Source: Eledone cirrhosa
Lineage: Eukaryota
Reading direction: 5' to 3'
Assembly (NCBI GenBank): GCA_964016885.1
Contig: OZ024753.1
Coordinates: forward strand, 15,996,001-16,060,000
Length of the DNA stretch: 64,000 bases
The stretch's first letter is position 1, and every line of letters starts with the position of its first letter. Position numbers and translations under genes: made by a program. Shown in pieces: positions 3,001-64,000 of the stretch. A model generated the notes under the pieces. The model searched no databases. It saw nothing but the letters and a program-made list of their open reading frames with translations, and had not been told where the DNA came from.

Positions 3001-3045
3001 CCTAACAAACCACAGTTCACAACCGACATCTCATGGCCCACCTAA
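1..3045. repeat. 40-bp tandem satellite (GCTAACAAACCACAGTTCACAACCGACATCTCATCCCACA), ~76 copies, runs off the left edge
   Basis: Direct 40-bp periodicity with point variants only and no spacers. Confidence 0.98.
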
Positions 3046-9148: not shown

Positions 9149-9156
<8 letters not shown>

Positions 9157-9857
9157 AGTACATTTACCAACATATGTGTACAGATGTTCACCTATGCTAG
9201 CAAATATATATGTTATGTCTTAGTACCTTTGTGGTTCTATGCAGGGGGATGCAGAACAATTATATGAAAGACGTAAAATAAGAAAATTTTAAAAATTAAA
9301 AATCAACTTACTTTTACGTCTTTCATATAATTGTTCTGCATCCCCCTGCATAGAACCACAAAGGTACTAAGACATAACATATATATTTGCTAGCATAGAT
9401 GAACATCTGTACACATATGTTGGTAAATGTACTAATTCTCTATATTTATCTCCAAATTATTTGTTGAGCAAAACTTGCCAAAATTTACTGCTGATTCATG
9501 GTAGTAGTAGGCTCTTGTCATAATACCACCCCGCTCCTAACTGATTAACCTCAGTGTCACGTGATTGATTCTTTAGAATCTGCCACTGACCAGAGGCAGT
9601 GAATTTTTTCAGTGCTCCGGAATTTAGTCCTCGCTGGATTTATTCCATCCACTGAATTATTATTAATTTTATATGGGTTCCTAGTGTCCGCGCATCGCCT
9701 GGAACTTAGCTTAAAATAGACTCCCTGATGACGTAAGGAATTCTCTATAGTTATATTATGTAACTATATTTATCCCCTTACAGAAACTAATTAGTTGGAG
9801 TGAAAATTTTAGTAAGTAACTTCATTTTTAATTTTTAAAATTTTCTTATTTTACGTC

Positions 9858-9866
<9 letters not shown>
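9149..9866 (+). mobile_element. Non-coding Penelope-like/retrozyme-like cassette: ~537-bp unit preceded by an inverted partial copy
   Basis: 9149-9278 is the reverse complement of 9312-9441, and 9261-9311 is the reverse complement of 9816-9866. TTTTACGTCTTTCATATA occurs at both 9312 and 9849. It contains a hammerhead and is flanked by (GA)n and (TA)n. Confidence 0.8.
9720..9801 (+). ncRNA. Type-I hammerhead ribozyme motif (minimal, palindromic stem III)
   Basis: Stem I ACTCC/GGAGT, core CTGATGA, stem II GTAAGG/CCTTAC, GAAA, stem III CTAATTAG, GUU cleavage triplet ending at 9796. Confidence 0.8.
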
Positions 9867-16384: not shown

Positions 16385-16982
16385 CATCATCATCATCATC
16401 GTTTAATGTCCATGTTCCACGCTTGCATAGGTTTGGACGGGAGTTTTCCCACTTGAGGCAAGAGTGGTTGTCTTGCTCGCATAGGATTGTCTGGCGGGTT
16501 TTCTACAGTTGGATGCCCTTCCTAACACCAACCACATTTACAGTGTGGGGCTGGGAGGTTTTTACCGTGTTATCTACACGGCCACATTACAGTGTGGACT
16601 GTGTGTTTTTTTGTCGTGACACCTACACGATCTCATTTGTTTTGGCCTGGAAGTTGTGGCACCAACATAACTTTACATTGAAAGGGGCGGTGAGGATGGG
16701 GTGGAGGCGGTGGGACGGGGGGGTGTTTTGATAGAGATGCCTACTGACTGTAGTAGGTTTTACTTTGTATTCAGGTGAGGCGAGTCTTATCTATTACTGA
16801 GTACCACCAAAGGTCTCGGTCCAGTGACATTGTCTTGGAGAGGTGTAAGTGTGTGAGGTCGGAATTTATCAGCTCATCCCAGGTTTTTCTGGGTCTGCCT
16901 ATTCCGTGGCTACCGTCTATCTTTATTGCCCTCCACTTTGTTATACAGCTGTCGTCTTTCATGCGCATCACGTGACCATACC
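16385..16982 (-). mobile_element. RTE family-B 3' fragment ([11 protein letters not shown]…[11 protein letters not shown], 3' UTR, (GAT)n)
   Basis: Protein motif at the end of ORF 16771-17211. Colinear with ~26674-27342. Confidence 0.92.
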
Positions 16983-19900
16983 AAATATACATGTATATAT
17001 ATAAAGTATACACACACATATACATATATACAAATATACATGTATATATATAAAGTATACACACACATACATATATACAATTATACATGTATATATATAA
17101 AGTATACACACACATGTACCTATATACAAATTTACATGTATATATATAAAGTATGCACACACATATACATATATACAAATATACATGTATATATATAAAG
17201 TATACACACACATATACCTATATACAAATATACATGTATATATATAAAGTATACACACACATATACCTATATACAAATATACATGTATATATATAAAATA
17301 TACACACACATGTACCTATATACAAATATACATGTATATATATAAAATATACACACACATGTACCTATATACAAATATACATGTATATATATAAAGTATA
17401 CACACACATATACATATATACAAATATACATATATATATATAAAGTATACACACACATATACATATATACAAATATACATGTATATATATAAAGTATACA
17501 CACACATACATATATACAAATATACATGTATATATATAAAGTATACACACACACATACAAATATACATGTATATATATAAAGTATACACACACATGCACC
17601 TATATACAAATATACAAAAATATATATAAAGTATACACACACATATACATATATACAAATATACATGTATATATATAAAGTATACACACACATACATATA
17701 TACAAATATACATGTATATATATAAAGTATACAAACACACATACAAATATACATGTATATATATAAAGTATACACACACATGCACCTATATACAAATATA
17801 CAAAAATATATATAAAGTATACACACACATATACATATATACAAATATACATGTATATATATAAAGTATACACACACATACCTATATACAAATATACATG
17901 TATATATATAAAGTATACACACACATATACATATATACAAATATACATGTATATATATAAAGTATGCACACACATATAAATATATACAAATATACATGTA
18001 TATATATAAAGTATACACACACATATACCTATATACAAATATACATGTATATATATAAAGTATACACACACATATACATATATATATATATACAAATATA
18101 CATGTATATATATAAAGTATACACACACATATACATATATACAAATATACATGTATATATATAAAGTATACATGCACATATTCATATATACAAATATACA
18201 TGTATATATATAAAGTATACACGCACATATACATATATACAAATATACATGTATATATATAAAGTATACACACACATATACATATATACAAATATACATG
18301 TATATATATAAAGTATACACACACATATACATATATACAAATATACATGTATATATATAAAGTATACACACACATATACATATATACAAATATACATGTA
18401 TATATATAAAGTATACAAATATACATGAATATATAAAGTATACAAATATACATGTATATATATAAAGTATACAAATATACATGTATATATATAAAGTATA
18501 CACACACATATAGATATATACAAATATACATGTATATATATATATAAAGTATACACACACACATAAATATATACAAATATACATGTATATATATAAAGTA
18601 TACACATATACAAATATACATGTATATATATAAAGTATACACACACATATATATATATACAAATATACATGTATATATATAAAGTATACACACACATATA
18701 CATATATACAAATATACATGTATATATATAAAGTATACACACACATATACATATATACAAATATAAATGTATATATATAAAGTATACACACACATACATA
18801 TATACAAATATACATGTATATATATAAAGTATGCACACACATATACATATATACAAATATACATGTATATATATAAAGTATACACACACATATACATATA
18901 TACATGTATATGTATACATATACATATATACAAATATACATGTATATATATAAAGTATACATATACATATATACAAATATTCATGTATATATATAAAGTA
19001 TACATATACATATATACAAATATACATGTATATATATAAAGTATACACACACATATACATATATACAAACATACATGTATATATATAAAGTATACAAACA
19101 CATATACATATATACAAATATACATGTATATATATATAAAGTATACATATACATATATACAAATATACATATATATATATAAAGTATACATATACATATA
19201 TACAAATGTACATGTATATATATAAAGTATACATATACATATATACAAATATACATGTATATATATAAAGTATACACACACATATACATATATACAAATA
19301 TACATGTATATATATAAAGTATACATATACATATATACAAATATACATGTATATATATAAAGTATACACACACATATACATATACACAAATATACATGTA
19401 TATATATAAAGTATACACACACATGTACCTATATACAAATATACATGTATATATATAAAGTATACACACACATATACATATATACAAATATACATGTATA
19501 TATATATAAAGTATACACACACATATACATATATACAAATATACATGTATATATATAAAGTATACACACACATGTACCTATATACAAATATACATGTATA
19601 TATATAAAGTATACACACACATATACATATATACAAATATACATGTATATATATAAAATATACACACACATATACATATATATACAAATATACATGTATA
19701 TATATAATGTATACACTCACATGTACCTATATACAAATATACATGTATATATATAAAGTATACACACACATATACATATATACAAATATACATGTATATA
19801 TATAAAGTATACATATACATATATACAAATATACATGTATATATATAAAGTATACACACACATATACATATATACAAATATACATGTATATATATATAAA

Positions 19901-22900
19901 GTATACATATACATATATACAAATATACATGTATATATATAAAGTATACACACACATATACATATATACAAATATACATGTATATATATAAAGTATACAC
20001 ACACATGTACCTATATACAAATATACATGAATATATATAAAGTATACACACACATATACATATATACAAATATACATGTATATATATAAAGTATACACAC
20101 ACATGTACCTATATACAAATATACATGAATATATATAAAGTATACACACACATATACATATATACAAATATACATGTATATATATATAAAGTATACACAC
20201 ACATGTACGTATATACAAACATACATGTATATATATAAAGTATACACACACATATACATATATACAAATATACATGTATATATATAAAGTATACACACAC
20301 ATATACATATATACAAATATTCATGTATATATATAAAGTATACATATACATATATACAAACATACATGTATATATATAAAGTATACACACACATATACAT
20401 ATATACAAATATACATGTATATATATAAAGTATACACACACATATACATATATACAAATATACATATATTTATATAAAGTATACATATACATATATACAA
20501 ATATACAAATATACATATATATATATAAAGTATACATATACATATATACAAATATACATGTATATATATAAAATATACACACACATGTACCTATATACAA
20601 ATATACATCTATATATATAAAGTATACACACACGTATACATATATACAAATATACATGTATATATATAAAGTATACACACACATATACATATATACAAAT
20701 ATACAAGTATATATATAAAGTATACACACACATATAGATATATACAAATATACATGTATATATATAAAGTATACACACACATGTACCTATATACAAATAT
20801 ACATCTATATATATAAAGTATACACACACATATACATATATACAAATATACATGTATATATATAAAGTATACACACACATATACATATATACAAATATAC
20901 ATGTATATATATAAAGTATACACACACATATACAAATATACAAGTATATATATAAAGTATACACACACATATAGATATAAACAAATATACATGTATATAT
21001 ATAAAGTATACACACACATATACATATATACATGTATATATATAAAGTATACACACACACATACATATATACATGTATATATATAAAGTATACACACACA
21101 TGTACAAATATACATGTATATATATAAAGTATACACACACATGTACCTATATACAAATATATATGTATATATATAAAGTATACACACAAATATACATATA
21201 TACAAATATACATGTATATATATATAAAGTATACACACACATATACATATATACAAATATACATATATATATATAAAGTATACATATACATATATACAAA
21301 TATACATGTATATATATAAAGTGTATACACACATATACATATATACAAATATACATGTATATATATAAAGTATACACACACATGTACCTATATACAAATA
21401 TACATCTATATATATAAAGTATACACACACATATACATATATACAAATATACATGTATATATATAAAGTATACACACACATATACATATATACAAATATA
21501 CAAGTATATATATAAAGTATACACACACATATACATATATACAAATATACATGTATATATATAAAGTATACACACACATATACATATATACAAATATACA
21601 AGTATATATATAAAGTATACACACACATATAGATATATACAAATATACATGTATATATATAAAGTATACACACACATATACATATATACATGTATATATA
21701 TAAAGTATACACACACACATACATATATACATGTATATATATAAAGTATACACACACATATACAAATATACATGTATATATATAAAGTATACACACACAT
21801 GTACCTATATACAAATATATATGTATATTTATAAAGTATACACACACATATATATATATACAAATATACATGTATATATATAAAGTATACATATACATAT
21901 ATACAAATATACATGTATATATATATAAAGTATACACACACATATACATATATACATATATACATGTATATATATAAAGTATACACACACATGTACCTAT
22001 ATACAAATATACATGTATATATATAAAGTATACACACACATATACATATATACAAATATACATGTGTATATATAAAATATACACACACATATACATATAT
22101 ACAAATATACATGTATATATATAAAGTATACACACAGATGCACCTATATACAAATATACATGTATATATATAAAGTATACACACACATACATATATACAA
22201 ATATACATGTATATATATAAAGTATACACACACATATACATATATACAAATATACATGTATATATATAATGTATACACACACATGTACCCATATACAAAT
22301 ATACATGTATATATATAAAGTATACACACACATATACATATATACAAATATACATGTATATATATATAAAGTATACATATACATATATACAAATATACAT
22401 GTATATATATAAAGTATACACACACATATACATATATACAAATATACATGTATATATATAAAGTATACATATACATATATACAAATATACATGTATATAT
22501 ATAAAGTATACACACACATATATACATATATACAAATATACATGTATATATATCAAGTATACACACACATGTACCTATATACAAATATACATGAATATAT
22601 ATAAAGTATACACACACATATACATATATACAAATATACATGTATATATATATATAAAGTATACACACATGTACGTATATACAAACATACATGTATATAT
22701 ATAAAGTATACACACACATATACATATATACAAATATACATGTATATATATAAAGTATACACACACATATACATATATACAAATATACATGTATATATAT
22801 AAAGTATACACACACATATACATATATACAAATATACATGTATATATACATAAAGTATACACACACATGTACATATATACAAATATACATGTATATATAT

Positions 22901-25345
22901 AAAGTATACATATACATATATACAAACATACATGTATATATATAAAGTATACATACACATATACATATATACAAATATACATGTATATATATAAAGTATA
23001 CACACACATATACATATATACAAATATACATGTATATATATAAAGTATACACACACATATACATATATACAAATATACATGTATATATATAAAGTATACA
23101 CACACATATACATATATACAAATATACATGTATATATATAAAGTATACACACACATATACATATATACAAATATACATGTATATATATATAAAGTATACA
23201 CACACATATACATATATACAAATATACATATATATATATAAAGTATACATATACATATATACAAATATACATGTATATATATAAAGTATATACACACATG
23301 TACCTATATACAAATATACATCTATATATATAAAGTATACACACACACATACATATATACAAATATACATGTATATATATAAAGTATACATATACATATA
23401 TACATGTATATATATAAAGTATATACACACATATACATATATACAAATATACATGTATATATATAAAGTATACACACACATATACATATATACAAATATA
23501 CAAGTATATATATAAAGTATACACACACATATAGATATATACAAATATACATGTATATATATAAAGTATACACACACATATACATATATACATGTATATA
23601 TATAAAGTATACACACACACATACATATATACAAATATACATGTATATATATAAAGTATACATATACATATATACATGTATATATATAAAGTATATACAC
23701 ACATATACATATATACAAATATACATGTATATATATAAAGTATACACACACATATACATATATACAAATATACAAGTATATATATAAAGTATACACACAC
23801 ATATAGATATATACAAATATACATGTATATATATAAAGTATACACACACATATACATATATACATGTATATATATAAAGTATACACACACACATACATAT
23901 ATACATGTATATATATAAAGTATACACACACATATACAAATATACATGTATATATATAAAGTATACACACACATGTACCTATATACAAATATATATGTAT
24001 ATATATAAAGTATACACACACATATACATATATACAAATATACATGTATATATATAAAGTATACATATACATATATACAAATATACGTGTATATATATAA
24101 AGTATACACACACATATACATATATACAAATATACATGTATATATATAAAGTATACACACACATGTACCTATATACAAATATACATGTATATATATAAAG
24201 TATACACACACATATACATATATACAAATATACATGTATATATATAAAGTATACACACACACATACCTATATACAAATATACATGTATATATATAAAGTA
24301 TACGCACACATGTACCTATATACAAATATACATGTATATATATAAAGTATACACAGACATATACATTGATACAAATATACATGTATATATATAAAGTATA
24401 CACACATATATACATATATACAAATCTACATGTATATATATAAAGTATACACACACATATACATATATACAAATATACATGTATATATATAAAGTATACA
24501 CACACATACCTATATACAAATATACATGTATATATATAAAGTATACACACACATACATATATACAAATATACATGTATATATATATAAAGTATACACACA
24601 CATATACATATATACAAATATACATGTATATATATATAAAGTATACACACACATATACATATATACAAATATACATGTATATATATATATAAAGTATACA
24701 CACACATATACATATATACAAATATACATGTATATATATAAAGTATACACACACATATACATGTATATATATAAATTATACACACACATATACATATATA
24801 CAAATATACATGTATATATATAAAGTATACACACACACATACATATATACAAATATACATGTATATATATAAAGTATACACACACATATACATATATACA
24901 AATATACATGTATATATATAAAGTATACACACACATATACCTATATACAAATATACATGTATATATATAAAGTATACACACACATACATATATACAAAAA
25001 TACATGTATATATATAAAGTATACACACACATATACATATATACAAATATACATGTATATATATAAAGTATACACACACATATACATATATACAAATATA
25101 CATGTATATATATAAAGTATACACACACATGTACATATATACAAATATACATGTATATATATAAAGTATGCACACACATATAAATATATACAAATATACA
25201 TGTATATATATAAAGTATACACACACATATACATATATACAAATATACAGGTATAATTATAAAGTATACACACACATATACATATATACAAATATACATG
25301 TATATATATAAAGTATACACACACATATACATATATACAAATATG
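16982..25345. repeat. ~49-bp AT-rich satellite (AAATATACATGTATATATATAAAGTATACACACACATATACATATATAC), ~170-180 units, 8.4 kb
   Basis: Direct periodicity, with slippage in the internal TA/CA runs. Confidence 0.97.
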
Positions 25346-28073: not shown

Positions 28074-31000
28074 CTTAGTCTTAGTTCCTCCAGTCACTTG
28101 TGGAACATTGGGCGACGAGCTTCCTCCACTATATCCTGTCACTGGCGGCCCTTCTAGCACCTCTCCAGGTAATTCCCATCTCCCGCAGGTCCTCCCTGAA
28201 TGTGCTCCGCCATGTTTTTCGTGGTCTTCCCCGTTCTCTCCTGCCACCTTCTGGTACCCAATCCATGGCAATATGAGCAGGTCGATCTGCCGGCAAACGA
28301 AGGATGTGGCCCGCGAACCGCCGTCTCCTTTTCCGGACAATGTCCCTTAACCTCTCCAATTCTGACCTCCTCATCACTTCCTCGTTGCTAACTTGGTCTC
28401 TCCATGAAATTTTCAATATGGTCCGAATGCAACGACGGTGGAATACATCAAGCTTGTTACATACACTTTCCGTACTCTTCCATGTCTCACAGGCATATAT
28501 CGCTGTTGGTACTACAATGGACATGTAAACACGGAATTTGACGGCATTGCCGATGTAACACCTGGACCATACCGGACGGAGTCGCTGGAAGACTGCCGCT
28601 GCTTTTCCCAGCCTTGTGCGCACATCTACCTCAGCATCCCCATCGTCAGATATGTTGCTGCCAAGGTATTGAAAGTGGTTTACACATTCAATGTTACGCC
28701 GACCAACCATGATGGGAGGATTTGGAGGGTCACCTGTCGACATGGTCTTGGATTTTTCACAACTGATGCGCAGGCCAACTTTCTCTGCATTGTCATTTAG
28801 AATGTTTGTCATCTCTTGCAGGTCTTCTCAGGAATGGCCTATCACTGCGATGTCATCGGCAAAGTCCAGGTCGCTTAATCTCCTTCCATCCCAACTGATG
28901 CCAAAACGAGGATCACTCAGTCTTCTTCATGATGAAATCGATGACAATGAGGAAAAGGAAAGGTGAAAGGATGCAGCCTTGTCGAACACCCGTCAAGATG
29001 TCAAACATTTCCATGTTTCCGTCCTTTGTCCTAACGCAGCACCTGGAATGTCGGTACAGCGACATGAAGATGTTAATATATTTCTCTGGGACACCGTAGA
29101 GTCTTAAAATCTTCCACAATGACTCCCAATGAACACTGTCGAGAGCTTTCCTGAAGTCAATGTAGTTGACAAGGAACTTGAGGAACTCCCGACATTGTTC
29201 AATGATATTTCGGAGAGTGAAGATCTGCTCTGAACAAGACCTTCCACTGCGGAAGCCAGCCTGTTCGTCTCGAAGATGACGATCTACTTCTGCTCTCAGC
29301 CGGTTCAGGATGACTGTGCAGAATACCTTCCCTGGCACTGATAGCAACGTGATCCCTCTCCAGTTGTTGCAGTCGCTGAGACAGCCCTTCTTCGGTAGTG
29401 GTACAATCACTCCATTTCCCCAGTCCTCCGGCACCTCCTCTTCTTGTCAAATCACATTGCATAAATGGGTGAGCTGCTCCTCTATTACATCCTTGCCGTG
29501 CTTCAAAAGCTCTGCAGGAATTTCATCCAGCCCTGCTGCTTTGTTATTCTTTTGGCAATAGATGGCCTTGGCCACCTCAGCTCTTGTGATGTTGTCTAGT
29601 CGTACATCCAACCGGTAGCTCGCTTCCTCCCAGTCAACCTCGAAGACTGTGTTGGGGGATGGCTGATTGAGGACCTCACGAAAGTGTTCATTCCACCTCT
29701 GGACCTGCCCTTCCCTGGCTGCAAGCATCCGACCATCTTTGCTCTTGATTGGCAAACTGCTTCCACTTCGTCCTCCCTAACGATCCGATACAGCGTCTTG
29801 GAATCATTCAATCTGCTGCCACCTGTGCCTCTGCAGTCCGATCTTCTAACCACTGGTGCTTGTCTTTTCGACAGCCCTTCTTTACTTCCTTGTCAAGACG
29901 TCTGTACTCTTTGTCCACTTCCTTCCATTGCTGTCGAGTTTTGGTTTGATCTCTTTTGTTCTTAACATCCTTCCTCTCGTCAATGAGATTCCATGAAGTA
30001 CTGCTGATCCACTGTTCCCGGTTGGTTCCCCTTCTTCTACCAATAACTACATCAGCACTTGCCCTGACCGCCTGAGCAAACATCTGCCACTGGTCTTCAT
30101 GGTTCTGTGCGTGCTGTAGTTCTTGGAACTTATTCCTGATCTCCAGGTAGAATCCCTCTGACGTGCCTTGGTCTTGCAGGCTTGCGTCAGCATATGGCCT
30201 CACGGTCTTAATTGCTTTGTTCTTCTTCAACCTCAAGCGGATTTTTCCAACCACAAGATGATGGTCAGATCCGACATCTGCCCCTCGGTAGGTGCGAACA
30301 TCCAAGAGAGGAACGCCACCTCGTGCCAATGTAGATATAATGAATCTCATTCCTGGTGTTGGCATCAGGGGAAGTCCATGTCATCTTGTGAATCCGCCTA
30401 TGGGTGAAGAATGTATTCCCGATGGAGAGGTTGCTGATACTGCTCAAGGACAGCAACCGTTCCCCCGTTATTATTGGTGGAATCAGCTGAACCGTGAGGG
30501 CCAATGGCTGAATGCATTTCTCTCCTGTCTCCATCTAGCTTGGCATTGAAGTCACCAATCACCAGCCTAATATCTGACCTGGGTGTTTCCTCTAGGACAT
30601 CCTGTAGTTGGATAAAGAAGGTAACCTTATCTTCATCTGAGGCAGTTTCAGTCGGTCCCAAACTCCGCCTTAGCCGGTCCCAAGTCCGGTTGAGAAAGGA
30701 GGAGAGTTGTAGCGTGGGGTTAGCAGCCCTACCCCCATAAAAACTTTTCACCGCTACAGAAACGACGAGAAAAAACCATTTTGATACCCAGCGGCGGACA
30801 AGAGAAGACAAGTCATCCCTGGATGCACCTATCAGGGTCAAAGCCAAAAGGAGGCCTGACCGCGGATAAGTCCTATCTTCAACGCCAAATCAAACACAAG
30901 AATAGGCACCTGGAATGTCGGCACGCTCTTTCGGGATGGGCGGATAGAGCAGGTGCTGAAGGAGATGAGAGAATATCGCCTTGACATCATGGGCATCAGC

Positions 31001-36254: not shown

Positions 36255-36488
36255 ATCATCATCATCATCACCGTTTGACATCCATTTTCCACACTAGCAT
36301 GGGTTAGATGAGTGGCCCCGTTGTATGACTAGCCAGGTCTGATGACCATGACTTGCTCATACAGGACTGGTTTTGGCTTGGTTTCTACAACTGGATGCCC
36401 TTCCTAACACCAACCACATTTACAGTGAGTATTAGGTGCTTTTTGTTGTGTCACCTGCATGACCACTTTACGGTGTGAGCTGGGTGCT
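36255..36488 (-). mobile_element. 3' tail fragment of RTE family B or SINE type B
   Basis: (CAT)n followed by a match to ~7478-7715. Confidence 0.75.
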
Positions 36489-37380
36489 ATAGAAATAGTC
36501 AACTCTTTCTGTTACCTGGGTGATGAAATCAGCAGTGGAAGGTGTTCCGAAAGTACAGTAGCCAGAGTAAAAACAAGATGGAGAAAGTCCAGAGTGCTAC
36601 TACCGCTACTAGCTACAAAAGGTTTTTCCCTTAAAATGAAGGGCAAATTGTATGATGCATGTATATAGACAGCAATGTTACATGGTAGTGAGACATGGGT
36701 ATTCTGTGCAGAGGACTTGCAAAGATTGGAAAGAAATGAAGCATACATGCTCCAATGCATGTGAAATAGTAATATACATGATTGGCAAAGTCTAAATGAA
36801 CTAAGAGAGAAATTAGGTATAAGAGTAATCAGATGCAGCATGCTAGAGAGGAGATTGCACTGTTATGATCATATGAATGACAGCTGTATAAAAAGGTGCA
36901 GAGTGCTCAACATTGATGGAAGCCTTGGAGTAGGTAGACCCAGGAAGAACTGGGACGAGGTCATAAAAGTTGAGCTTGCACAACTGAACCTCTTAAAATC
37001 AATAACGCAGGATTGAGATTTTTGCCGTTGTGCAGTAAAATAGAGGACATGCCTTCCCTTGTGCACAGACTCATGCATACTCCTAGTAGGCACCTCTTAA
37101 CCACTATATCACCCACTCCTGTCTATACCACCCTTACACGGTGAACCAAACATACCCAACCCACACTTTATAGTGGTCATGTAGGTGTCATGATAAAAAC
37201 ACCCAACCTACATTGTAAAAGCGGTTGGCATTAGAAAGGGCATCCAGCCATAGAAACCTAGCCAGAAACGATCCTATATAAGTAAGACACAGTCACCTGA
37301 CCCAACTTGCCCCAAATGGGACAACTCGTCTAACCCATGCTCGTGTGGAAAATGCATGTTAAATGAGGATGATGATGATG
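36488..37380 (+). mobile_element. Decayed RTE family-B 3' fragment with 3' UTR
   Basis: IEIVNSFCYLGDEISS…KGKLYDACI…LERNEAYML…GRPRKNWDEVI, ending in (GAT)n. Confidence 0.9.
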
Positions 37381-37425: not shown

Positions 37426-37515
<90 letters not shown>

Positions 37516-37533
37516 TATATATATATTTATATT

Positions 37534-37644
<111 letters not shown>

Positions 37645-38448
37645 CTTTCAAATACAAACTTAAAAGAACCAACACTGCTCTCTCAGAACTCATATGGTCC
37701 TTAAAAGACAAAAACATTAAATATACCATCTTTTGGAAGAAGGTTTCTTCTGCATCCTCATACTTGAACAGCTCTCTATCTAAAATCTGTAATCTCCGCT
37801 TAAATGAAAAATTTACCATTATCTCTAACCTAGATTCTATAATAAATAGACGTACAGATTTGTTTTCTATCTGCCTGCATAAATTCCATAGGACTTTTCA
37901 CAAAGTATAGAGTTAATATTCAATTCTTTATCAATTTAGAATCTTTTCTCAAAGGCACATATACATACACCTCTTTAAAATATACCCATCTTCCTACCAT
38001 ACTTTAAAGGGCATTATACACTCTATAATACTTGTTTACTCATTACCCTCATTCTATCTTCACCTTGTAAAATCCTTCATAACATATACATTTGTTTGTT
38101 CTTTTGACGTTAGAATATTCATCCGCAATCATTATTATTTTTTCTCTCTATCATAAATCTTTTTAATCTCAATTTTATCCTTAATTTATTATTTTTTTCT
38201 CCCCATCAACGAACTCATTCTTAATACATATTAACTCTTTATTCGCATATATTATATTATCAATTCCTTCAATATACAAACTTTAACTTCACATTATTTT
38301 TCTCAAATCCTTCTACACACAAACCTTAATAATTTTTCTCTTCGTTAATTTTGAAATTGCCACAATACTTATCAACATACACTTTTTTTGACGTTAGAAT
38401 ATTCATCCACAATTATTATTTTTTCTCTCTATCTTCATACATAAATTC

Positions 38449-38860
38449 CCTTCGTTAATTTTCAAATTCCTTTAATTTATACATTATCTTCCAACGGTTC
38501 TCAACCTCTCTATGTAAAACAATATATCTTTTTCTCAGTTATAAAAACTATCTCTTTCTCTCTATCACCCATCTCTCCCTCTCCACCTTCACTCTCATCT
38601 CCTCCCCCTTTTTTCATCCTTTCCACCCCCCCTCCCTAAATAAAATATTTTTTCCTCGCACATATCCTCCCTTCGTTAATTTTCAAATTTTTTTTTTAAA
38701 TTTATACATTATCTTCCAACGGTTTTCAACCTCTCTATGTAAAACAATATATCTCCTCTCAGTTATAAAAATTATCTCTTTCTCTCTATCACCCATCTCT
38801 CCCTCTCATCTCCTCCCCTTTTTCATCCTTTCCACCCCCCTCTCTAAATAAAATATTTTT
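38449..38860. repeat. ~200-bp direct duplication within the PLE 3' region
   Basis: 38449-38650 matches 38670-38860 (CCTTCGTTAATTTTCAAATT…TAAATAAAATATTTTT). Confidence 0.85.
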
Positions 38861-38957
38861 CCCAATATCACACATCAATCTAAAACCACTTTTCATATGT
38901 TGATTTAAAACTGCACTATCCACAAGTGTTTTTTAGCCTTCATATCATGTTCTCCTG

Positions 38958-39024
38958 TTTTATCTGATGAAAACACAAATATTATTGCATGATGATGTTT
39001 GTTTTTGAAATGCGCATAATAAAA
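38958..39024 (+). ncRNA. Type-I hammerhead ribozyme at the PLE 3' end
   Basis: Stem I TTTTAT/ATAAAA, CTGATGA, ~16-bp stem II with G-U pairs and one mismatch, GAAA, palindromic TGCGCA, AUA triplet with cleavage after 39018. Confidence 0.85.
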
Positions 39025-39062
39025 TACATGGAACTCCTTTAGCCATCTTTTGATCTTATATA

Positions 39063-39147
<85 letters not shown>

Positions 39148-39535: not shown

Positions 39536-39591
39536 AATAATAATATATAAGGGAACAAAGAATCAGTATTGCATCATATACATATTTAATT

Positions 39592-39683
39592 ACATATTAC
39601 ATATGTTTCACTGTCGATCAGCTAAAGGAACAATCTATAAATGATTGAACCTGACTCTGGAATCGAAAGCTCCTCAGATATGT
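39592..39683 (-). ncRNA. Type-I hammerhead ribozyme motif
   Basis: Minus strand reads ACATAT-CTGAGGA-GCTTTCGAT…ATCGACAGT-GAAA-CATATG-TA-ATATGT: 6-bp stem I, palindromic stem III, GUA triplet. Confidence 0.8.
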
Positions 39684-39700
39684 TTTAACATGTAGACTCG

Positions 39701-43030: not shown

Positions 43031-43200
43031 TGTCCTTGAAATATGTATAATGAAATAACTATGGTTTTATAAATATAGTTTCCATTTGTTAATATCATAT
43101 TTTTACTCCAATTATTTGTTGAGTGCTTTATATCAGTTATAAAAATATTTGCTTGTTGCATCCCAACAATTTAAATAGAACTTTTACATATATATATATA

Positions 43201-43665
43201 TTATAAAGCGTGAAATGACAGGAGGCCAAATATGTTGAATTTCTTTAATATTATGCACATTTCAGTGGCAAGGTTGCATAAAATCCTGGCGACCTCATCA
43301 GGTGTAAATTGCATAATAGATTTATACCAATGGAATGATGGTAAGTAAACCTTAAGGAAACAAGCAAAGAAAAGACAGAGAAAAAAGTTTGTGTTTATGT
43401 CTTTGACCCAGAGATGGACAAAGTAGCATGCTGCCACCTTGCTGCCCTGTCTCTTACGCAACCCTAGCCACTGAAATGTGTGTAGTGTGTACAGTTATAA
43501 ATAATTAAGGAATTTCAACATATTTGGCCTCCTGTCATTTCACTTCATAATACATTTACTCCGTTCCCGCACCACCAACATGATTCAACATTGAATGTGG
43601 ATGAGTCATGGTTAACATTGCAGAATGACCAATTCTACCCAGTGGTAAACCACCCAATTTAAACA
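43201..43665. mobile_element. (TA)n-flanked inverted-repeat cassette with a decayed hammerhead (43252-43306, minus strand)
   Basis: 43210-43280 is inverted relative to ~43457-43543. Minus strand reads TACAC-CTGATGA-GGTCGCCAGG…CCTTGCCACT-GAAA-TGTGCA-TA. Confidence 0.65.
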
Positions 43666-56176: not shown

Positions 56177-56177
56177 A

Positions 56178-59100
56178 TTATCACCTCCATCAACAGGTTT
56201 CAGCCCCTATCACTGAACTACACATTATCACCTCCATCAACAGGTTTCAGTCCCTATCACTGAACTACACATTATCACCTCCATCAACAGGTTTCAGCCC
56301 CTATCACTGAACTACACATTAACAACTCCATCAACAGGTTTCAGCCCCTATCACTGAACTACACATTATTACCTCCATCAACAGGTTTCAGCCCCTATTA
56401 TTGAACTACACATTATCGCCTCCATCAACAGGTTTCAGCCCCTATCACTCAACTACACATTATCACCTCCATCAACAGGTTTAAGCCCCTATCACTGAAC
56501 TACACATTATCACCTCCATCAACAGGTTTCAGCCCCTATCACTGAACTACACATTATCACCTCCATCAACAGGTTTCAGCCCCTATCATTGAACTACACG
56601 TTATCACCTCCATCAACAGGTTTTAGTCCCTATTATTGAACTACACATTATCACCTCCATCAACAGGTTTCAGCCCCTATCACTGAACTACACATTATCA
56701 CCTCCATCAACAGGTTTCAGCTCCTATCACTGAACTACACATTATCACCTCCATCAACAGGTTTCAGCCTCTATCACTGAACTACACTATATGACCGCCA
56801 TCAACAAGTTTCGGCCCCTATCACTGAACTACACATTATCACCTCCATCAACAGGTATCAGCCCCTTTCACTGAGCTACACATTATCACCTCCATCAACA
56901 GGTTTCAGCCCCATTCACTGAACTACACATTATCACCTCCATCAACAGGTTTCAGACCCTATTACTGAGCTACACATTATCACCTCCATCAACAGGTTTC
57001 AGCCCCTATCACTGAACTACACACTATCAGCTCCATCAACAGGTTTCATCCCCTATCATTGAACTACACATTATCACCTCCATCAACAGGTTGAGTCCCT
57101 ATCACTAAACTACACATTAACACCTCCATCAACAGGTTTCAGCCCCTATCACTGAAGTACACATTATCACCTCCATCAACAGGTTTCAGCCCCTTTTACT
57201 GAGCTACACATTATCACCTCCATCAACAGGTTTCAGCCCCTATCACTGACCTACACATTATCACCTCCATCAACAGGTTTCAGCCCTTATCACTGAACTA
57301 CACATTATCAAATCTATCAACAGGTTTCAGGCCCTATCATTGAACTACACATTATCACCAACATCAACAGGTTTCAGCCCCTACCACTGAACTACACATT
57401 ATCACCCCCATCAACAGGTTTCGGACGCTATCATTGAACTACACATTATCACCTCCATCAACAGGTTTCAGCCCCTATCAATTAACTACACATTATCATC
57501 TCCATCAACAGGTATCAGCCCCTATAACTGAACTACACATTATCACCTCCATCAACAGGTATCAGCCCCTATCACTGAACTACACATTATCACATCCATC
57601 AACAGGTTTCAGCCCCTATCACTGAACTACACATTATCACCTCCATCAACAGGTTTCAGCCCCTATCACTGAACTACACATTATCACCTCCATCAACAGG
57701 TTTCAGCCCCTATCACTGAACTACACATTATCACTTCCATCAACAGGTTTCAGCCCCTATCACTGAAATACAAATTATCACCTTCATCAACTGGTTTCAG
57801 TCCCTATCACAGAACTACACATTATCACCTCCATCAACACGTTTCAGCCCCTATTATTGAACTACACATTATCGCCTCCATTAACAGGTTTCAGCTCCTA
57901 TCACGGAACTACACATTATCATCTCCATCAACAGGTTTCAGCCCCTATCACTGAACTACACATTATCACCTCCATCAACAGGTTTCAGCCCCTATCACTG
58001 AACTACACATTATCACCTCCATGAACACGTTTCAGCCCCTATCACTGAATTACACATTATCACCTCCATCAACATGCTTCAGCCCCTATCACTGAACTAC
58101 ACATTATCACCCCGATCAACAGGTTTCGGCCCCTATCACTGAACTACACATTATCACCCCCATCAACAGGTTTCGGACCCTATCACTGAACTACACATTA
58201 TCATCTCTATCAATAGGTTTCGGACACTATCACTGAACTACACATTATCACCTCCATCAACAGGTTTCGGCCCCTATCACTGAACTACACATTATCGCCT
58301 CCATCAACAGGTTTCAGCCCCTATCATTGAACTACACATTATCACCTCCATCAAAAAGGTTTCAGCCCCTATCACTGAACTACACATTATCACCTCCATC
58401 AAAAAGGTTTCAGCCCCTATCACTGAACTACACATTATCGCCTCCATCAACAGGTTTCAGCCCCTATCACTGAACTACACATTATCGCCTCCATCAACAG
58501 GCTTCAGCCCCTATCACTAAACTACACATTATCACCTCCATCAACAGGTTTCAGCCCCTATCACTGAACTACACATTATCACCTCCATCAACAGGTTTCA
58601 GCCCCTATCACTGAACTACACATTATCACCTCCATCAACAGGTTTCAGCCCCTATCATTGAACTACACGTTATCACCTCCATCAACAGGTTTTAGTCCCT
58701 ATTATTGAACTACACATTATCACCTCCATCAACAGGTTTCAGCACCTATCACTGAACTACACATTATCACCTCCATCAACAGGTTTCAGCCCCTATCACT
58801 GAACTACACATTATCACCTCCATCAACAGGTTTCAGCCTCTATCACTGAACTACACTATATGACCGCCATCAACAAGTTTCTTCCCCTATCACTGAACTA
58901 CACATTATCACCTCCATCAACAGGTATCAGCCCCTTTCACTGAGCTACACATTATCACCTCCATCAACAGGTTTCAGCCCCTATCACTGAACTACACATT
59001 ATCACCTCCATCAACAGGTTTCAGTCCCTATTACTGAGCTACACATTATCACCTCCATCAACAGGTTTCAGTCCCTATCACTTAACTACACATTATCACC

Positions 59101-62100
59101 TCCATCAACAGGTTTCAGCCCCTATTATTGAACTACACATTATCGCCTCAATCAACAGGTTTCAGCCCCTATCACTGAACTACACACTATCAGCTCCATC
59201 AACAGGTTTCATCCCCTATCATTGAACTACACATTATCACATCCTTCAACAGGTTGAGTCCCTATCACTAAACTACACATTAACACCTCCATCAACAGGT
59301 TTCAGCCCCTATCACTGAAGTACACATTATCACCTCCATCAACAGGTTTCAGCCCCTTTTACTGAGCTACACATTATCACCTCCATCAACAGGTTTCAGC
59401 CCCTATCACTGACCTACACATTATCACCTCCATCAACAGGTTTCAGCCCTTATCACTGAACTACACATTATCAAATCTATCAACAGGTTTCAGCCCCTAT
59501 CATTGAACTACACATTATCACCAACATCAACAGGTTTCAGCCCCTATCACTGAACTACACATTATCACCCCCATCAACAGGTTTCGGACGCTATCATTGA
59601 ACTACACATTATCACCTCCATCAACAGGTTTCAGCCCCTATCGATGAACTACACATTATCATCTCCATCAACAGGTATCAGCCCCTATAACTGAACTACA
59701 CATTATCACCTCCATCAACAGGTATCAGCCCCTATCACAGAACTACACATTATCACATCCATCAACAGGTTTCAGCCCCGATCACTGAACTACACATTAT
59801 CACCTCCATCAACAGGTTTCAGCCTCTATCACTGAACTACACATTATCACCTCCATCAACAGGTTTCAGCCCCTATCACTGAACTACACATTATCACTTC
59901 CATCAACAGGTTTCAGCCCCTATCACTGAAATACAAATTATCACCTTCATCAACTGGTTTCAGTCCCTATCACAGAACTACACATTATCACTTCCATCAA
60001 CACGTTTCAGCCCCTATTATTGAACTACACATTATCGCCTCCATTAACAGGTTTCAGCTCCTATCACTGAACTACACATTATCACCTCCATCAACAGGTT
60101 TCAGCCCCTATCACTGAACTACACATTATCACCTCCATCAACAGGTTTCAGCCTCTATCACTGAATTACACATTATCACCTCCATCAACAGGCTTCAGCC
60201 TCTATCACTGAACTACACATTATCACCTCCATCAACAGGTTTCAGCCCCTATCACTGAACTACACATTATCACTTCCATCAACAGGTTTCAGCCCCTATC
60301 ACTGAACTACACATTATCACCTTCATCAACTGGTTTCAGTCCCTATCACAGAACTACACATTATCACCTCCATCAACACGTTTCAGCCCCTATTATTGAA
60401 CTACACATTATCGCCTCCATTAACAGGTTTCAGCTCCTATCACGGAACTACACATTATCATCTCCATCAACAGGTTTCAGCCCCTATCACTGAACTACAC
60501 ATTATCACCTCCATCAACAGGTTTCAGCCCCTATCACTGAACTACACATTATCACCTCCATGAACACGTTTCAGCCCCTATCACTGAATTACACATTATC
60601 ACCTCCATCAACATGCTTCAGCCCCTATCACTGAACTACACATTATCACCCCGATCAACAGGTTTCGGCCCCTATCACTGAACTACACATTATCACCCCC
60701 ATCAACAGGTTTCGGACCCTATCACTGAACTACACATTATCATCTCTATCAATAGGTTTCGGACACTATCACTGAAATACACATTATCACCTCCATCAAC
60801 AGCCTTCAGCCCCTATCACTGAACTACACATTATCACCCCGATCAACAGGTTTCGGCCCCTATCACTGAACTACACATTATCACCTCCATCAACAGGTTT
60901 CAGCTCCTATCACTGAACTACACATTAACACCTCCATCAACAGGTTTCACCCCCTATCACTGAACTACACATTATCACCTCCATCAACAGGTTTCAGCCC
61001 CTATTATTGAACTACACATTATCGCCTCCATCAACAGGTTTCAGCCCCTATCATTGAACTACACATTATCACCTCCATCAAAAAGGTTTCAGCCCCTATC
61101 ACTGAACTACACATTATCACCTCCATCAAAAAGGTTTCAGCCCCTATTACTGAACTACACATTATCGCCTCCATCAACAGGTTTCAGCCCCTATCACTGA
61201 ACTACACATTATCGCCTCCATCAACAGGCTTCAGCCCCTATCACTAAACTACACATTATCACCTCCATCAACAGGTTTCAGCCCCTATTATTGAATTACA
61301 CATTATCGCCTCAATCAACAGGTTTCAGCCCCTATCACTGAACTACACACTATCAGCTCCATCAACAGGTTTCATCCCCTATCATTGAACTACACATTAT
61401 CACCTCCTTCAACAGGTTGAGTCCCTATCACTAAACTACACATTAACACCTCCATCAACAGGTTTCAGCCCCTATCACTGAAGTACACATTATCACCTCC
61501 ATCAACAGGTTTCAGCCCCTTTTACTGAGCTACACATTATCACCTCCATCAACAGGTTTCAGCCCCTATCACTGACCTACACATTATCACCTCCATCAAC
61601 AGGTTTCAGCCCTTATCACTGAACTACACATTATCAAATCTATCAACAGGTTTCAGCCCCTATCGATGAACTACACATTATCATCTCCATCAACAGGTAT
61701 CAGCCCCTATAACTGAACTACACATTATCACCTCCATCAACAGGTATCAGCCCCTATCACTGAACTACACATTATCACATCCATCAACAGGTTTCAGCCC
61801 CGATCACTGAACTACACATTATCACCTCCATCAACAGGTTTCAGCCCCTATCACTGAACTACACATTATCACCTCCATCAACAGGTTTCAGCCCCTATCA
61901 CTGAACTACACATTATCACTTCCATCAACAGGTTTCAGCCCCTATCACTGAAATACAAATTATCACCTTCATCAACTGGTTTCAGTCCCTATCACAGAAC
62001 TACACATTATCACTTCCATCAACACGTTTCAGCCCCTATTATTGAACTACACATTATCGCCTCCATTAACAGGTTTCAGCTCCTATCACTGAACTACACA

Positions 62101-64000
62101 TTATCACCTCCATCAACAGGTTTCAGCCCCTATCACTGAACTACACATTATCACCTCCATCAACAGGTTTCAGCCCCTATCACTGAACTACACATTATCA
62201 CCTCCATCAACAGGTTTCAGCCTCTATCACTGAATTACACATTATCACCTCCATCAACAGGCTTCAGCCTCTATCACTGAACTACACATTATCACCTCCA
62301 TCAACAGGTTTCAGCCCCTATCACTGAACTACACATTATCACTTCCATCAACAGGTTTCAGCCCCTATCACTGAACTACACATTATCACCTTCATCAACT
62401 GGTTTCAGTCCCTATCACAGAACTACACATTATCACCTCCATCAACACGTTTCAGCCCCTATTATTGAACTACACATTATCGCCTCCATTAAGAGGTTTC
62501 AGCTCCTATCACGGAACTACACATTATCATCTCCATCAACAGGTTTCAGCCCCTATCACTGAACTACACATTATCACCTCCATCAACAGGTTTCAGCCCC
62601 TATCACTGAACTACACATTATCACCTCCATGAACACGTTTCAGCCCCTATCACTGAATTACACATTATCACCTCCATCAACATGCTTCAGCCCCTATCAC
62701 TGAACTACACATTATCACCCCGATCAACAGGTTTCGGCCCCTATCACTGAACTACACATTATCACCCCCATCAACAGGTTTCGGACCCTATCACTGAACT
62801 ACACATTATCATCTCTATCAATAGGTTTCGGACACTATCACTGAACTACACATTATCACCTCCATCAACAGGCTTCAGCCCCTATCACTGAACTACACAT
62901 TATCACCCCGATCAACAGGTTTCGGCCCCTATCACTGAACTACACATTATCACCTCCATCAACAGGCTTCAGCCTCTATCACTGAACTACACATTATCAC
63001 CTCCATCAACAGGTTTCAGCCCCTATCACTGAACTACACATTATCACTTCCATCAACAGGTTTCAGCCCCTATCACTGAACTACACATTATCACCTTCAT
63101 CAACTGGTTTCAGTCCCTATCACAGAACTACACATTATCACCTCCATCAACACGTTTCAGCCCCTATTATTGAACTACACATTATCGCCTCCATTAACAG
63201 GTTTCAGCTCCTATCACGGAACTACACATTATCATCTCCATCAACAGGTTTCAGCCCCTATCACTGAACTACACATTATCACCTCCATCAACAGGTTTCA
63301 GCCCCTATCAACGAACTACACATTATCACCTCCATGAACACGTTTCAGCCCCTATCACTGAACTACACATTATCACCCCGATCAACAGGTTTCGGCCCCT
63401 ATCACTGAACTACACATTATCACCCCCATCAACAGGTTTCGGACCCTATCACTGAACTACACATTATCATCTCTATCAATAGGTTTCGGACACTATCACT
63501 GAACTACACATTATCACCTCCATCAACAGGCTTCAGCCCCTATCACTGAACTACACATTATCACCCCGATCAACAGGTTTCGGCCCCTATCACTGAACTA
63601 CACATTATCACCTCCATCAACAGGTTTCAGCTCCTATCACTGAACTACACATTAACACCTCCATCAACAGGTTTCACCCCCTATCACTGAACTACACATT
63701 ATCACCTCCATCAACAGGTTTCAGCCCCTATTATTGAACTACACATTATCGCCTCCATCAACAGGTTTCAGCCCCTATCATTGAACTACACATTATCACC
63801 TCCATCAAAAAGGTTTCAGCCCCTATCACTGAACTACACATTATCACCTCCATCAAAAAGGTTTCAGCCCCTATCACTGAACTACACATTATCGCCTCCA
63901 TCAACAGGTTTCAGCCCCTATCACTGAACTACACATTATCGCCTCCATCAACAGGCTTCAGCCCCTATCACTAAACTACACATTATCACCTCCATCAACA
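56178..64000. repeat. 47-bp tandem satellite (TTATCACCTCCATCAACAGGTTTCAGCCCCTATCACTGAACTACACA), ~166 copies, with higher-order blocks; runs off the right edge
   Basis: Direct periodicity. Diagnostic variants recur at ~2.07-2.16-kb spacing. Confidence 0.98.

What the first reader, a model, noticed from the sequence alone, without database searches (positions are those of the whole stretch)
37645..39058. Penelope-like endonuclease fragment with an intact hammerhead ~1.05 kb downstream
Seen: an ~88-codon frame with a PLE GIY-YIG C-terminal-like pattern, a pyrimidine-rich 3' region with internal duplications, then a well-formed hammerhead (38958-39024) ~35 nt before a (TA)n run. The 5' side is also (TA)n. 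Inference: this links the hammerheads and TA targeting in this window to an autonomous PLE family, a candidate helper for the non-coding cassettes. I recall the LSxxIWxLKD/CxLCxxEK signature from Naiad-type rather than Poseidon or Neptune PLEs (tentative), and whether that group carries hammerheads is worth checking.
Basis: partly seen in the sequence, partly recalled or inferred. Interest (0 to 1): 0.7.

Follow-up and report, generated by a model that had tools for sequence, protein, structure and literature searches.

The report
Young Hydra-type Penelope retrotransposon with ribozyme
This is the broken tail end of a recently multiplied jumping gene of a known group, carrying its own predicted self-cutting RNA motif, and the shape of its thousands of sister copies suggests the enzyme likely copies one RNA into both ends of a DNA cut from two fixed start points.

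Summary
Observation confirmed. 37643-39061 is one 5'-truncated copy of a young, high-copy Penelope-like element (PLE). Full copies encode an 800-aa RT plus C-terminal GIY-YIG protein. The hammerhead follows the ORF end in 29 of 29 ORF-selected loci, so it belongs to the element. The clade is Hydra, not Naiad: C-terminal nuclease, DKT, CxCX5C, CxxC, CxH, no CCHH. Hydra hammerheads and (TA)n targeting are published (PMC8557442). Unusual here: a 1.1-1.25-kb 3' UTR (relatives about 0.2 kb) and at least 8,528 hammerhead copies. Copies end at two fixed points past the cut site; 49 of 52 back-to-back pairs have one of each. 40 of 93 arms stop at window 38895, a likely RNA start, so many short non-coding cassettes are likely by-products of the coding RNA. 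The window's three other hammerhead cassettes share no DNA similarity with this family, so it is not shown to be their helper. The scan noted paired ends, twin hairpins and a fixed 5' stop before, on other DNA of this genome. Cleavage and expression are untested.

The parts
37438..37644 (.). (TA)n target tract on the 5' side, interrupted by TTT
37643..37910 (+). Last 88 codons of the RT-EN ORF (residues 711-798 of 800): second half of the GIY-YIG domain. The CxxC motif is changed (Cys to Arg, 37797) and the stop comes two codons early (37910). The 5' break joins TA directly with 1-2 nt overlap.
   Evidence: domain fold
37911..38955 (+). Long pyrimidine-rich 3' UTR / pseudo-LTR body with two internal duplications
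   Evidence: length compared with relatives
38895..38899 (+). Point (ATATG, after TTTTC) at which 40 of 93 sampled family arms begin; inferred RNA 5' end (transcription start) or strong RT stop. This copy reads through it.
38956..39026 (+). Type I hammerhead motif: stem I 38956-63/39019-26, CUGAUGA 38964-70, stem II 38971-39006, GAAA 39007-10, palindromic stem III 39010-17, AUA cut site 39018|39019
39027..39061 (+). 3' terminus of the 'short' type, 41-43 nt past the cut site. The 90-nt tail and the two hairpins of full copies are absent from this copy.
39057..39145 (.). (TA)n target tract on the 3' side

Best explanation
The stretch is a non-functional, 5'-truncated copy of a young Hydra-clade Penelope-like retrotransposon whose predicted hammerhead is the normal 3' pseudo-LTR ribozyme, and it was likely written into a (TA)n tract by target-primed reverse transcription. 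Shown: the identity, the ORF-hammerhead linkage, the copy numbers, the two fixed 3' ends, their pairing, and the 5' stop at 38895. Inferred: the element's GIY-YIG nuclease cuts both strands of (TA)n. The RT then starts inside an uncut element RNA at two sites about 45 and about 135 nt past the ribozyme cut site, one site per target end, each 5 nt before a conserved hairpin. The two cDNAs join head to head by microhomology. When RT starts at the sites in the 5' pseudo-LTR it runs off the RNA 5' end at 38895 and leaves 170-260-nt non-coding arms. In the window copy the second arm is absent (zero length) or lies elsewhere.
For: Own-genome search: 150 of 150 scored hits at 99-100% identity, 47,971 first-look candidates. 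Full ORF of 800 aa from the inferred start. RT fold with telomerase RTs in 6 of the top 7 rows. Nuclease model: the top four VIA hits are I-TevI (Z 8.9, rmsd 2.4, 89 aligned), T4 EndoII (7.3), the UvrC GIY-YIG domain (5.8) and PD-T4-3 (5.5). Hydra motifs as defined in PMC8557442 section 11. Linkage 29 of 29: 26 at 0.85-1.4 kb, 3 closer through UTR deletions. Relatives at 30-42% identity carry a sense hammerhead in 38 of 54 loci versus 2 of 54 antisense. The two common hammerhead variants, G38997A (38 of 93) and G38957A (15 of 93), both turn G.U into A-U pairs. 3' ends: 63 at +36..+51, 59 at +130..+137, 1 at +54 and 5 read-through, plus one arm that starts at +136 and runs into the ORF, of 129 arms. 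49 of 52 inverted pairs are one short plus one long, p 5e-12. Both arms share the diagnostic haplotype in 25 of 30 pairs versus 22% between loci. Long end joined to TA: 5,968 on the forward strand; read-through into the ORF: 209. Copies span the cut site, so the template is uncut. This agrees with PMC11167929 (parts 1-2 read): two internal starts, both strands extended, cleavage not needed.
Against: No RNA or cleavage data. The canonical hammerhead fold without a full stem III scores -6.9 versus an MFE of -11.1 kcal/mol. RWK reads RWT, and the unit (3,864 nt) exceeds the '<3 kb' of described Hydras. No tree with labelled references was built. The locus sample is the first 65 Mb of one contig, chosen by an exact 28-mer. 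Arm identity could also come from later gene conversion between inverted arms. One full-ORF locus (L038) lacks the 3' hammerhead. 3 of 52 pairs are same-type. 38895 sits in a CATATG palindrome, which also fits fold-back priming, and has no TATA or DPE match by eye.
Confidence: 0.75

Rival explanations
1. Same element, but the inverted pairs come from self-priming (fold-back) on an antisense RNA or on the first cDNA, with the two unequal ends set by nuclease resolution, as proposed for rotifer Penelopes (PMC3846280, passages read).
For: The 5' stop lies in a CATATG palindrome and several junctions are perfect fold-backs (L068, L128). Same-haplotype arms fit a single template.
Against: In several pairs the arm that stops at 38895 is the short-ended one, while its partner carries tail sequence (+52..+134) that the short arm lacks (L098, L119, L121, L126). 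A short cDNA cannot template that partner. In vitro data for Poseidon show sense-RNA internal starts on both strands.
Confidence: 0.15
2. The short arms starting at 38895 are a separate non-autonomous mini-element that amplifies itself, not by-products of the coding RNA.
For: They are very abundant: 12,419 exact hits for the word at 38895 versus 2,554 for the next word upstream, about 3:1 after a rough correction for variants. One haplotype was seen in 5 short and 0 long arms.
Against: Junctions differ from locus to locus. The four commonest haplotypes and one more are shared by long and short arms (24/17, 9/4, 6/2, 4/2, 3/1), as expected from repeated birth from the same masters.
Confidence: 0.2
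3. One reading: a Naiad-type PLE that carries a hammerhead, which would be an exception for that clade.
For: Naiads also favour (TA)n and occur in octopods (PMC8557442 supplement sheet).
Against: The nuclease is C-terminal in all full ORFs read. DKT rather than DKA, CxCX5C, no CCHH. The LSxxIWxLK pattern is in 17 of 26, and CxxCxxE in 25 of 26, aligned C-terminal-EN relatives.
Confidence: 0.01
4. The hammerhead belongs to a separate insertion that only lies next to the ORF fragment.
For: Most hammerhead-selected loci (47 of 65) do not reach the ORF.
Against: Those arms are nested 5' truncations of the same UTR. 29 of 29 ORF-selected loci have the hammerhead downstream on the same strand. It also sits 212 nt before the start codon in tandem copies.
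Confidence: 0.01

Closest known systems
Hydra clade of C-terminal EN+ Penelope-like elements, incl. Hydra-1_Obim (Craig et al. 2021, PMC8557442; sections 11 and 12, passages, supplement parts 1, 2, 7, 52, 53 read)
   Same: Single ORF with RT then GIY-YIG; DKT; CxCX5C linker; CxxC and CxH; no CCHH; canonical type I hammerhead near the 3' end; (TA)n targets; tandem and inverted pLTRs.
   Different: A different family from Hydra-1_Obim: other hammerhead and protein, compared by eye only. RWT instead of RWK. Unit 3.86 kb versus under 3 kb. 3' UTR 1.1-1.25 kb versus a median of 207 nt in relatives. About 80 extra low-complexity residues before the nuclease. AUA cut triplet (relatives mostly GUA) and a 16-pair A/U-rich stem II. 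At least 8,528 hammerhead copies.
Poseidon_Ac of the green anole (Frangieh et al. 2024, PMC11167929; text parts 1-2 of 4 read)
   Same: Two internal RT start sites that define an optional tail; AT-rich targets; both strands extended; uncut RNA as the template.
   Different: The tail here is about 90 nt, not 30-40. Start sites lie in the 5' UTR, not inside the ORF. The ends abut TA-like sequence. Strict one-short-one-long pairing and twin hairpins are not described in the parts read.
Penelope of Drosophila virilis (PMC2377424, passages) and rotifer Penelopes (PMC3846280, passages)
   Same: Transcription from inside the pseudo-LTR; head-to-head inverted pLTR with a one-sided tail; low-complexity Asn-rich insert between RT and EN.
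   Different: Different clade (CCHH nuclease). A fixed 5' stop producing thousands of pLTR-only insertions is not described in the passages read.
Metazoan type I PLE hammerheads and non-LTR retrozymes (PMC4209133, passages; bioRxiv 10.64898/2026.07.22.740005, part 1 of 5)
   Same: Short palindromic helix III predicted to need a dimer; non-coding hammerhead repeats derived from pLTRs.
   Different: The short arms here are inverted pairs without tandem repeats. The window's 538-nt tandem cassette at 9725 fits the retrozyme description better.
Naiad PLEs (PMC8557442)
   Same: (TA)n bias, pLTRs, high copy numbers.
   Different: N-terminal nuclease, CxC domain, DKA, IFD, no canonical hammerhead: none of the tested ones fits.

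Membership tests
Hydra PLE | Single ORF, RT followed by C-terminal GIY-YIG nuclease | tested here: met
Hydra PLE | DKG changed to DKT | tested here: met
   HSDKTNN at residue 121; DK[TS] in 26 of 26 aligned
Hydra PLE | RWK motif at the N-terminus | tested here: inconclusive
   RW is aligned and conserved, but the third residue is T
Hydra PLE | CxCX5C linker | tested here: met
   CNCRIKNKC at residues 659-667
Hydra PLE | No CCHH in the nuclease; CxxC and CxH beside the conserved E and N | tested here: met
   CNLC..E and CLH in full copies; invariant columns of A2. The window copy has lost one Cys.
Hydra PLE | Canonical hammerhead near the 3' end | tested here: met
   motif and linkage; activity not tested
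Hydra PLE | Insertion into (TA)n | tested here: met
   120 of 126 called ends are followed by TA repeats; the 6 others were mostly internal miscalls
Hydra PLE | Generally short (<3 kb) | tested here: not met
   Unit is 3,864 nt. The paper gives this as a tendency, not a rule.
Hydra PLE | RT groups with the Hydra clade in a phylogeny | not tested
   No labelled reference proteins were available to the tools. By eye, the published Hydra RT motifs match those of the family and its homologs.
Naiad PLE | N-terminal GIY-YIG nuclease | tested here: not met
   nuclease at residues 655-800 of 800
Naiad PLE | DKA motif; no canonical hammerhead | tested here: not met
   DKT; hammerhead present
Poseidon/Neptune/Nematis PLE | CCHH motif inside the nuclease; DKG | tested here: not met
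Type I hammerhead ribozyme | CUGANGA, GAAA, NUH and three stems | tested here: met
   stem III is a palindrome with a 2-nt loop as a monomer
Type I hammerhead ribozyme | Self-cleavage | not testable with these tools
   needs an assay

The most novel reading that the evidence does not exclude
One Hydra-type RNP copies the same uncut RNA into both ends of a (TA)n cut, starting 5 nt before each of two conserved hairpins. Because the same two signals lie in the 5' pseudo-LTR, most insertions are run-off copies of the first 170-260 nt of the coding mRNA. Thousands of apparent non-autonomous ribozyme cassettes would then be by-products of the autonomous transcript, and their fixed 5' end would map the element's promoter from DNA alone.
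Probability: 0.45. Interest if true: 0.7.

Novelty: new member of a known kind. Interest (0 to 1): 0.42.

Why it matters
As a finding at this locus it is ordinary: a dead copy of a described PLE clade whose hammerheads and TA bias are published. The family is useful because it is young (about 1% from its nearest copies), has intact ORFs and has more than 8,500 near-identical ends. That makes the open question of how PLEs form inverted, one-tailed insertions directly testable. The genome predicts exact RT start sites, two candidate RNA signals and an RNA 5' end, all of which can be checked with the published in vitro PLE assay. The Hydra protein also escaped the Pfam copy and the PDB sequence search used here, so such families are easy to miss.

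Tried and rejected
Pfam scans of the fragment, two full ORFs and four homologs gave nothing above cut-off; the best was a weak GIY-YIG match (E 0.012) on P0006. The PDB sequence search with the alignment gave 0 hits. Foldseek on the nuclease model gave only weak E-values, though GIY-YIG enzymes ranked first. Rfam listed no hammerhead in the 150 rows shown of 270. Sequencing runs: no RNA holder listed. A first automatic pairing count (45 of 53) included internal miscalls and was redone requiring TA after each end (49 of 52). Possible in vivo cleavage footprint: only 2 of 129 arms begin near the cut site (+4, +6), none at +1, and the sample is biased against them; not used. Two-sided covariation in stem I: C38955A and C39027T never co-occurred in 99 motifs, so family evidence is one-sided only. 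Helper test: no blastn similarity between the family unit and the window cassettes at 9725, 39677 and 43301. No Hydra coding sequence lay upstream in register in 75 cassette loci with 1.5-kb flanks; the five loci with hits had them beyond the TA end or on the other strand (whose printed listing was cut in the middle). The idea that L002 and the window copy were split by a simple inversion: TA-tract polarity does not fit. No tree with labelled PLE clades was built. Literature: eight searches listed no paper on this family, on paired short/long ends, or on twin hairpins. Most subscription journals and bioRxiv supplements were not visible, and only 5 of 59 parts of the Craig supplement were read.

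Full report
1. Observation. The frame 37644-37910 has 88 codons with [10 protein letters not shown]. The 3' region is 68% pyrimidine with two duplications. A type I hammerhead motif lies at 38956-39026 with its cut site at 39018|39019, and (TA)n flanks both sides. A strict descriptor finds 2 motifs in the window and none in 40 resampled windows. Stem II is stable (z -3.4) but the whole motif is not (z -1.2). Stem III is an 8-nt palindrome, the type thought to work as a dimer (PMC4209133 passages).

2. The element. The window lies in a 3.0-Gb animal genome; that it is octopus-like is my impression from the repeats and from earlier notes, not tested. The peptide has 150 of 150 scored hits at 99-100% identity among 47,971 candidates. 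Of 20 loci fetched for their long frames, 11 hold an 811-831-codon open frame. One natural unit (L032) is 3,864 nt from cut site to cut site: 212 nt of 5' UTR, an 800-aa ORF and 1,249 nt of 3' UTR. The full model matches reverse transcriptases, with telomerase RTs in 6 of the top 7 rows. The C-terminal 146 residues match I-TevI (Z 8.9, rmsd 2.4, 89 aligned), T4 EndoII and the UvrC GIY-YIG domain. The window copy keeps only residues 711-798, has lost a CxxC cysteine and stops two codons early, so it is inert. It is about 1% from its nearest copies.

3. Linkage. In 29 of 29 other ORF-selected loci the hammerhead follows on the same strand: 26 at 0.85-1.4 kb and 3 closer through UTR deletions. 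One full-ORF locus, L038, lacks it. Of 65 hammerhead-selected loci, 18 reach the ORF and the rest are shorter truncations of the same UTR.

4. Clade. Craig et al. (PMC8557442, section 11) define Hydra by a C-terminal nuclease, RWK, DKT, CxCX5C, no CCHH, CxxC and CxH, canonical hammerheads and (TA)n targets. Naiads have an N-terminal nuclease and no canonical hammerhead. The family has all the Hydra features except RWT for RWK and its length. An octopus family, Hydra-1_Obim, is already published with another hammerhead and protein (compared by eye). 35 database homologs at 30-38% identity have the same layout where aligned (25 of 35 aligned). Among 77 metagenome loci, 54 have room after the ORF; 38 carry a sense hammerhead versus 2 antisense, a median of 207 nt past the nuclease (loci not deduplicated by species). 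The 1.1-1.25-kb UTR here is thus about five times longer, partly through duplications.

5. Scale. An exact 28-mer of the hammerhead occurs 8,528 times. The long end joined to TA occurs 5,968 times on the forward strand alone (the reverse count is inflated by overlapping matches), versus 209 read-throughs towards the ORF. Contigs from two other coded organisms hold 95-99% identical pieces, one with the short-end and one with the long-end TA junction.

6. Insertion footprint. The sample was 65 loci covering the first 100 listed hammerhead hits of contig C1. Of 129 arms, 63 end 36-51 nt past the cut site, 59 end at 130-137, one at 54, and 6 run on into the ORF. Arms come as head-to-head pairs; 49 of 52 pairs have one short and one long end (p 5e-12), and 16 ends were single. 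The two arms share the diagnostic haplotype in 25 of 30 pairs versus 22% between loci. Either arm can be the longer, and long-ended arms hold sequence that the short-ended partner lacks, so neither is a copy of the other cDNA. All arms with a hammerhead span the cut site, so the template was uncut. This matches the Poseidon results: two internal starts, both strands extended, cleavage dispensable (PMC11167929). The tail here is about 90 nt.

7. Twin hairpins. Following a lead from earlier notes, I found RCUC...GAGY hairpins at +51 and +141, each 5 nt past the furthest short and long end; the first has A-U where the second has G-C. The motif follows 48 of 73 hammerhead sites in distant relatives, twice in 29, versus 13 of 1,460 shuffles. 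A role in positioning the RT is inferred.

8. Fixed 5' stop. 40 of 93 arms that contain the word at window 38895 begin there. Genome-wide the word has 12,419 exact hits versus 2,554 for the next word upstream, about 3:1 after a rough variant correction. Junctions differ between loci and haplotypes are shared with long arms, which points to repeated birth from the same masters. The simplest reading is RT run-off at an RNA 5' end inside the pseudo-LTR, where Penelope's promoter lies (PMC2377424 passages). Against it: the site is in a CATATG palindrome, and no RNA data exist.

9. Helper claim. The window holds three other hammerhead families, at 9725 (+), 39677 (-) and 43301 (-), with 2,611, 2,570 and 1,320 candidates. 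None resembles this family in DNA or shows a linked ORF within 1.5 kb in 75 loci. The first forms 538-nt tandems. The first two have fixed ends and a similar hairpin. Other Hydra-type coding sequences exist in the genome (L036, L144, L160, L167). A Hydra-clade helper is plausible; this family is one candidate among several.

10. Verdict. A new, young and very abundant member of the Hydra clade. The identity is close to certain (about 0.97); the two-site, both-strand mechanism is likely (about 0.7); the promoter run-off is even odds. Eight literature searches showed no paper on the pairing rule or the hairpins, within the limits of the library. Interest 0.42.

Noticed in passing
L002 / L293 (G000:C13, about 23.03 Mb; 7 Mb from the window): The only one of 50 compared copies that shares both the Cys-to-Arg change and the early stop with the window copy. 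It has a 5' break within 6 nt of the window's, carries the long end while the window copy has the short end, and keeps a 16-nt inverted remnant. It may be the missing second arm moved by a rearrangement or an assembly join; TA-tract polarity does not fit a simple inversion.
   Followed up: partly
window 9560-9862 (+) with inverted partner near 9150-9385: Well-formed hammerhead (core at 9725) of an unrelated family; 538-nt tandem unit, two ends, TA targets; retrozyme-like.
   Followed up: partly
window 39560-39700 (-): Hammerhead with CUGAGGA core and long stem II, about 600 nt from the studied one. Its family has a fairly fixed 5' start 25-35 nt before the core and a hairpin in the long tail.
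   Followed up: partly
window 43200-43420 (-): Older hammerhead cassette (copies about 80% alike), with stem I damaged in this copy.
   Followed up: partly
window 10439 (+): CUGAUGA just after a TA tract, with nearby GAAA; did not pass the strict descriptor.
   Followed up: no
window 30656-30710 (+): Weak Rfam twister-P1 match (36.1 bits, E 3.7e-4, gathering score 67.2) next to LINE-like sequence; could be a ribozyme at a LINE 5' end.
   Followed up: no
window 36429-37016 (+): Frames that look like a decayed RTE-type LINE C-terminus (by recall; no Pfam hit).
   Followed up: no
L036:6809-8200 (-), L167:1986-2788 (-), L160:862-1254 (-), L144:2372-2569 (+): Coding pieces of other Hydra-type families in the same genome (59% identity in the L167 RT piece), often next to each other in shared TA tracts.
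   Followed up: no
family protein residues 491-503 and 584-652: Low-complexity Asn/Ser/Pro/Thr inserts absent from homologs and disordered in the model; recalls the Asn-rich inserts of rotifer Penelopes.
   Followed up: partly
window 1-3034, 16982-25344, 56177-64000: Large minisatellite arrays with periods 40, 49 and 47.
   Followed up: no
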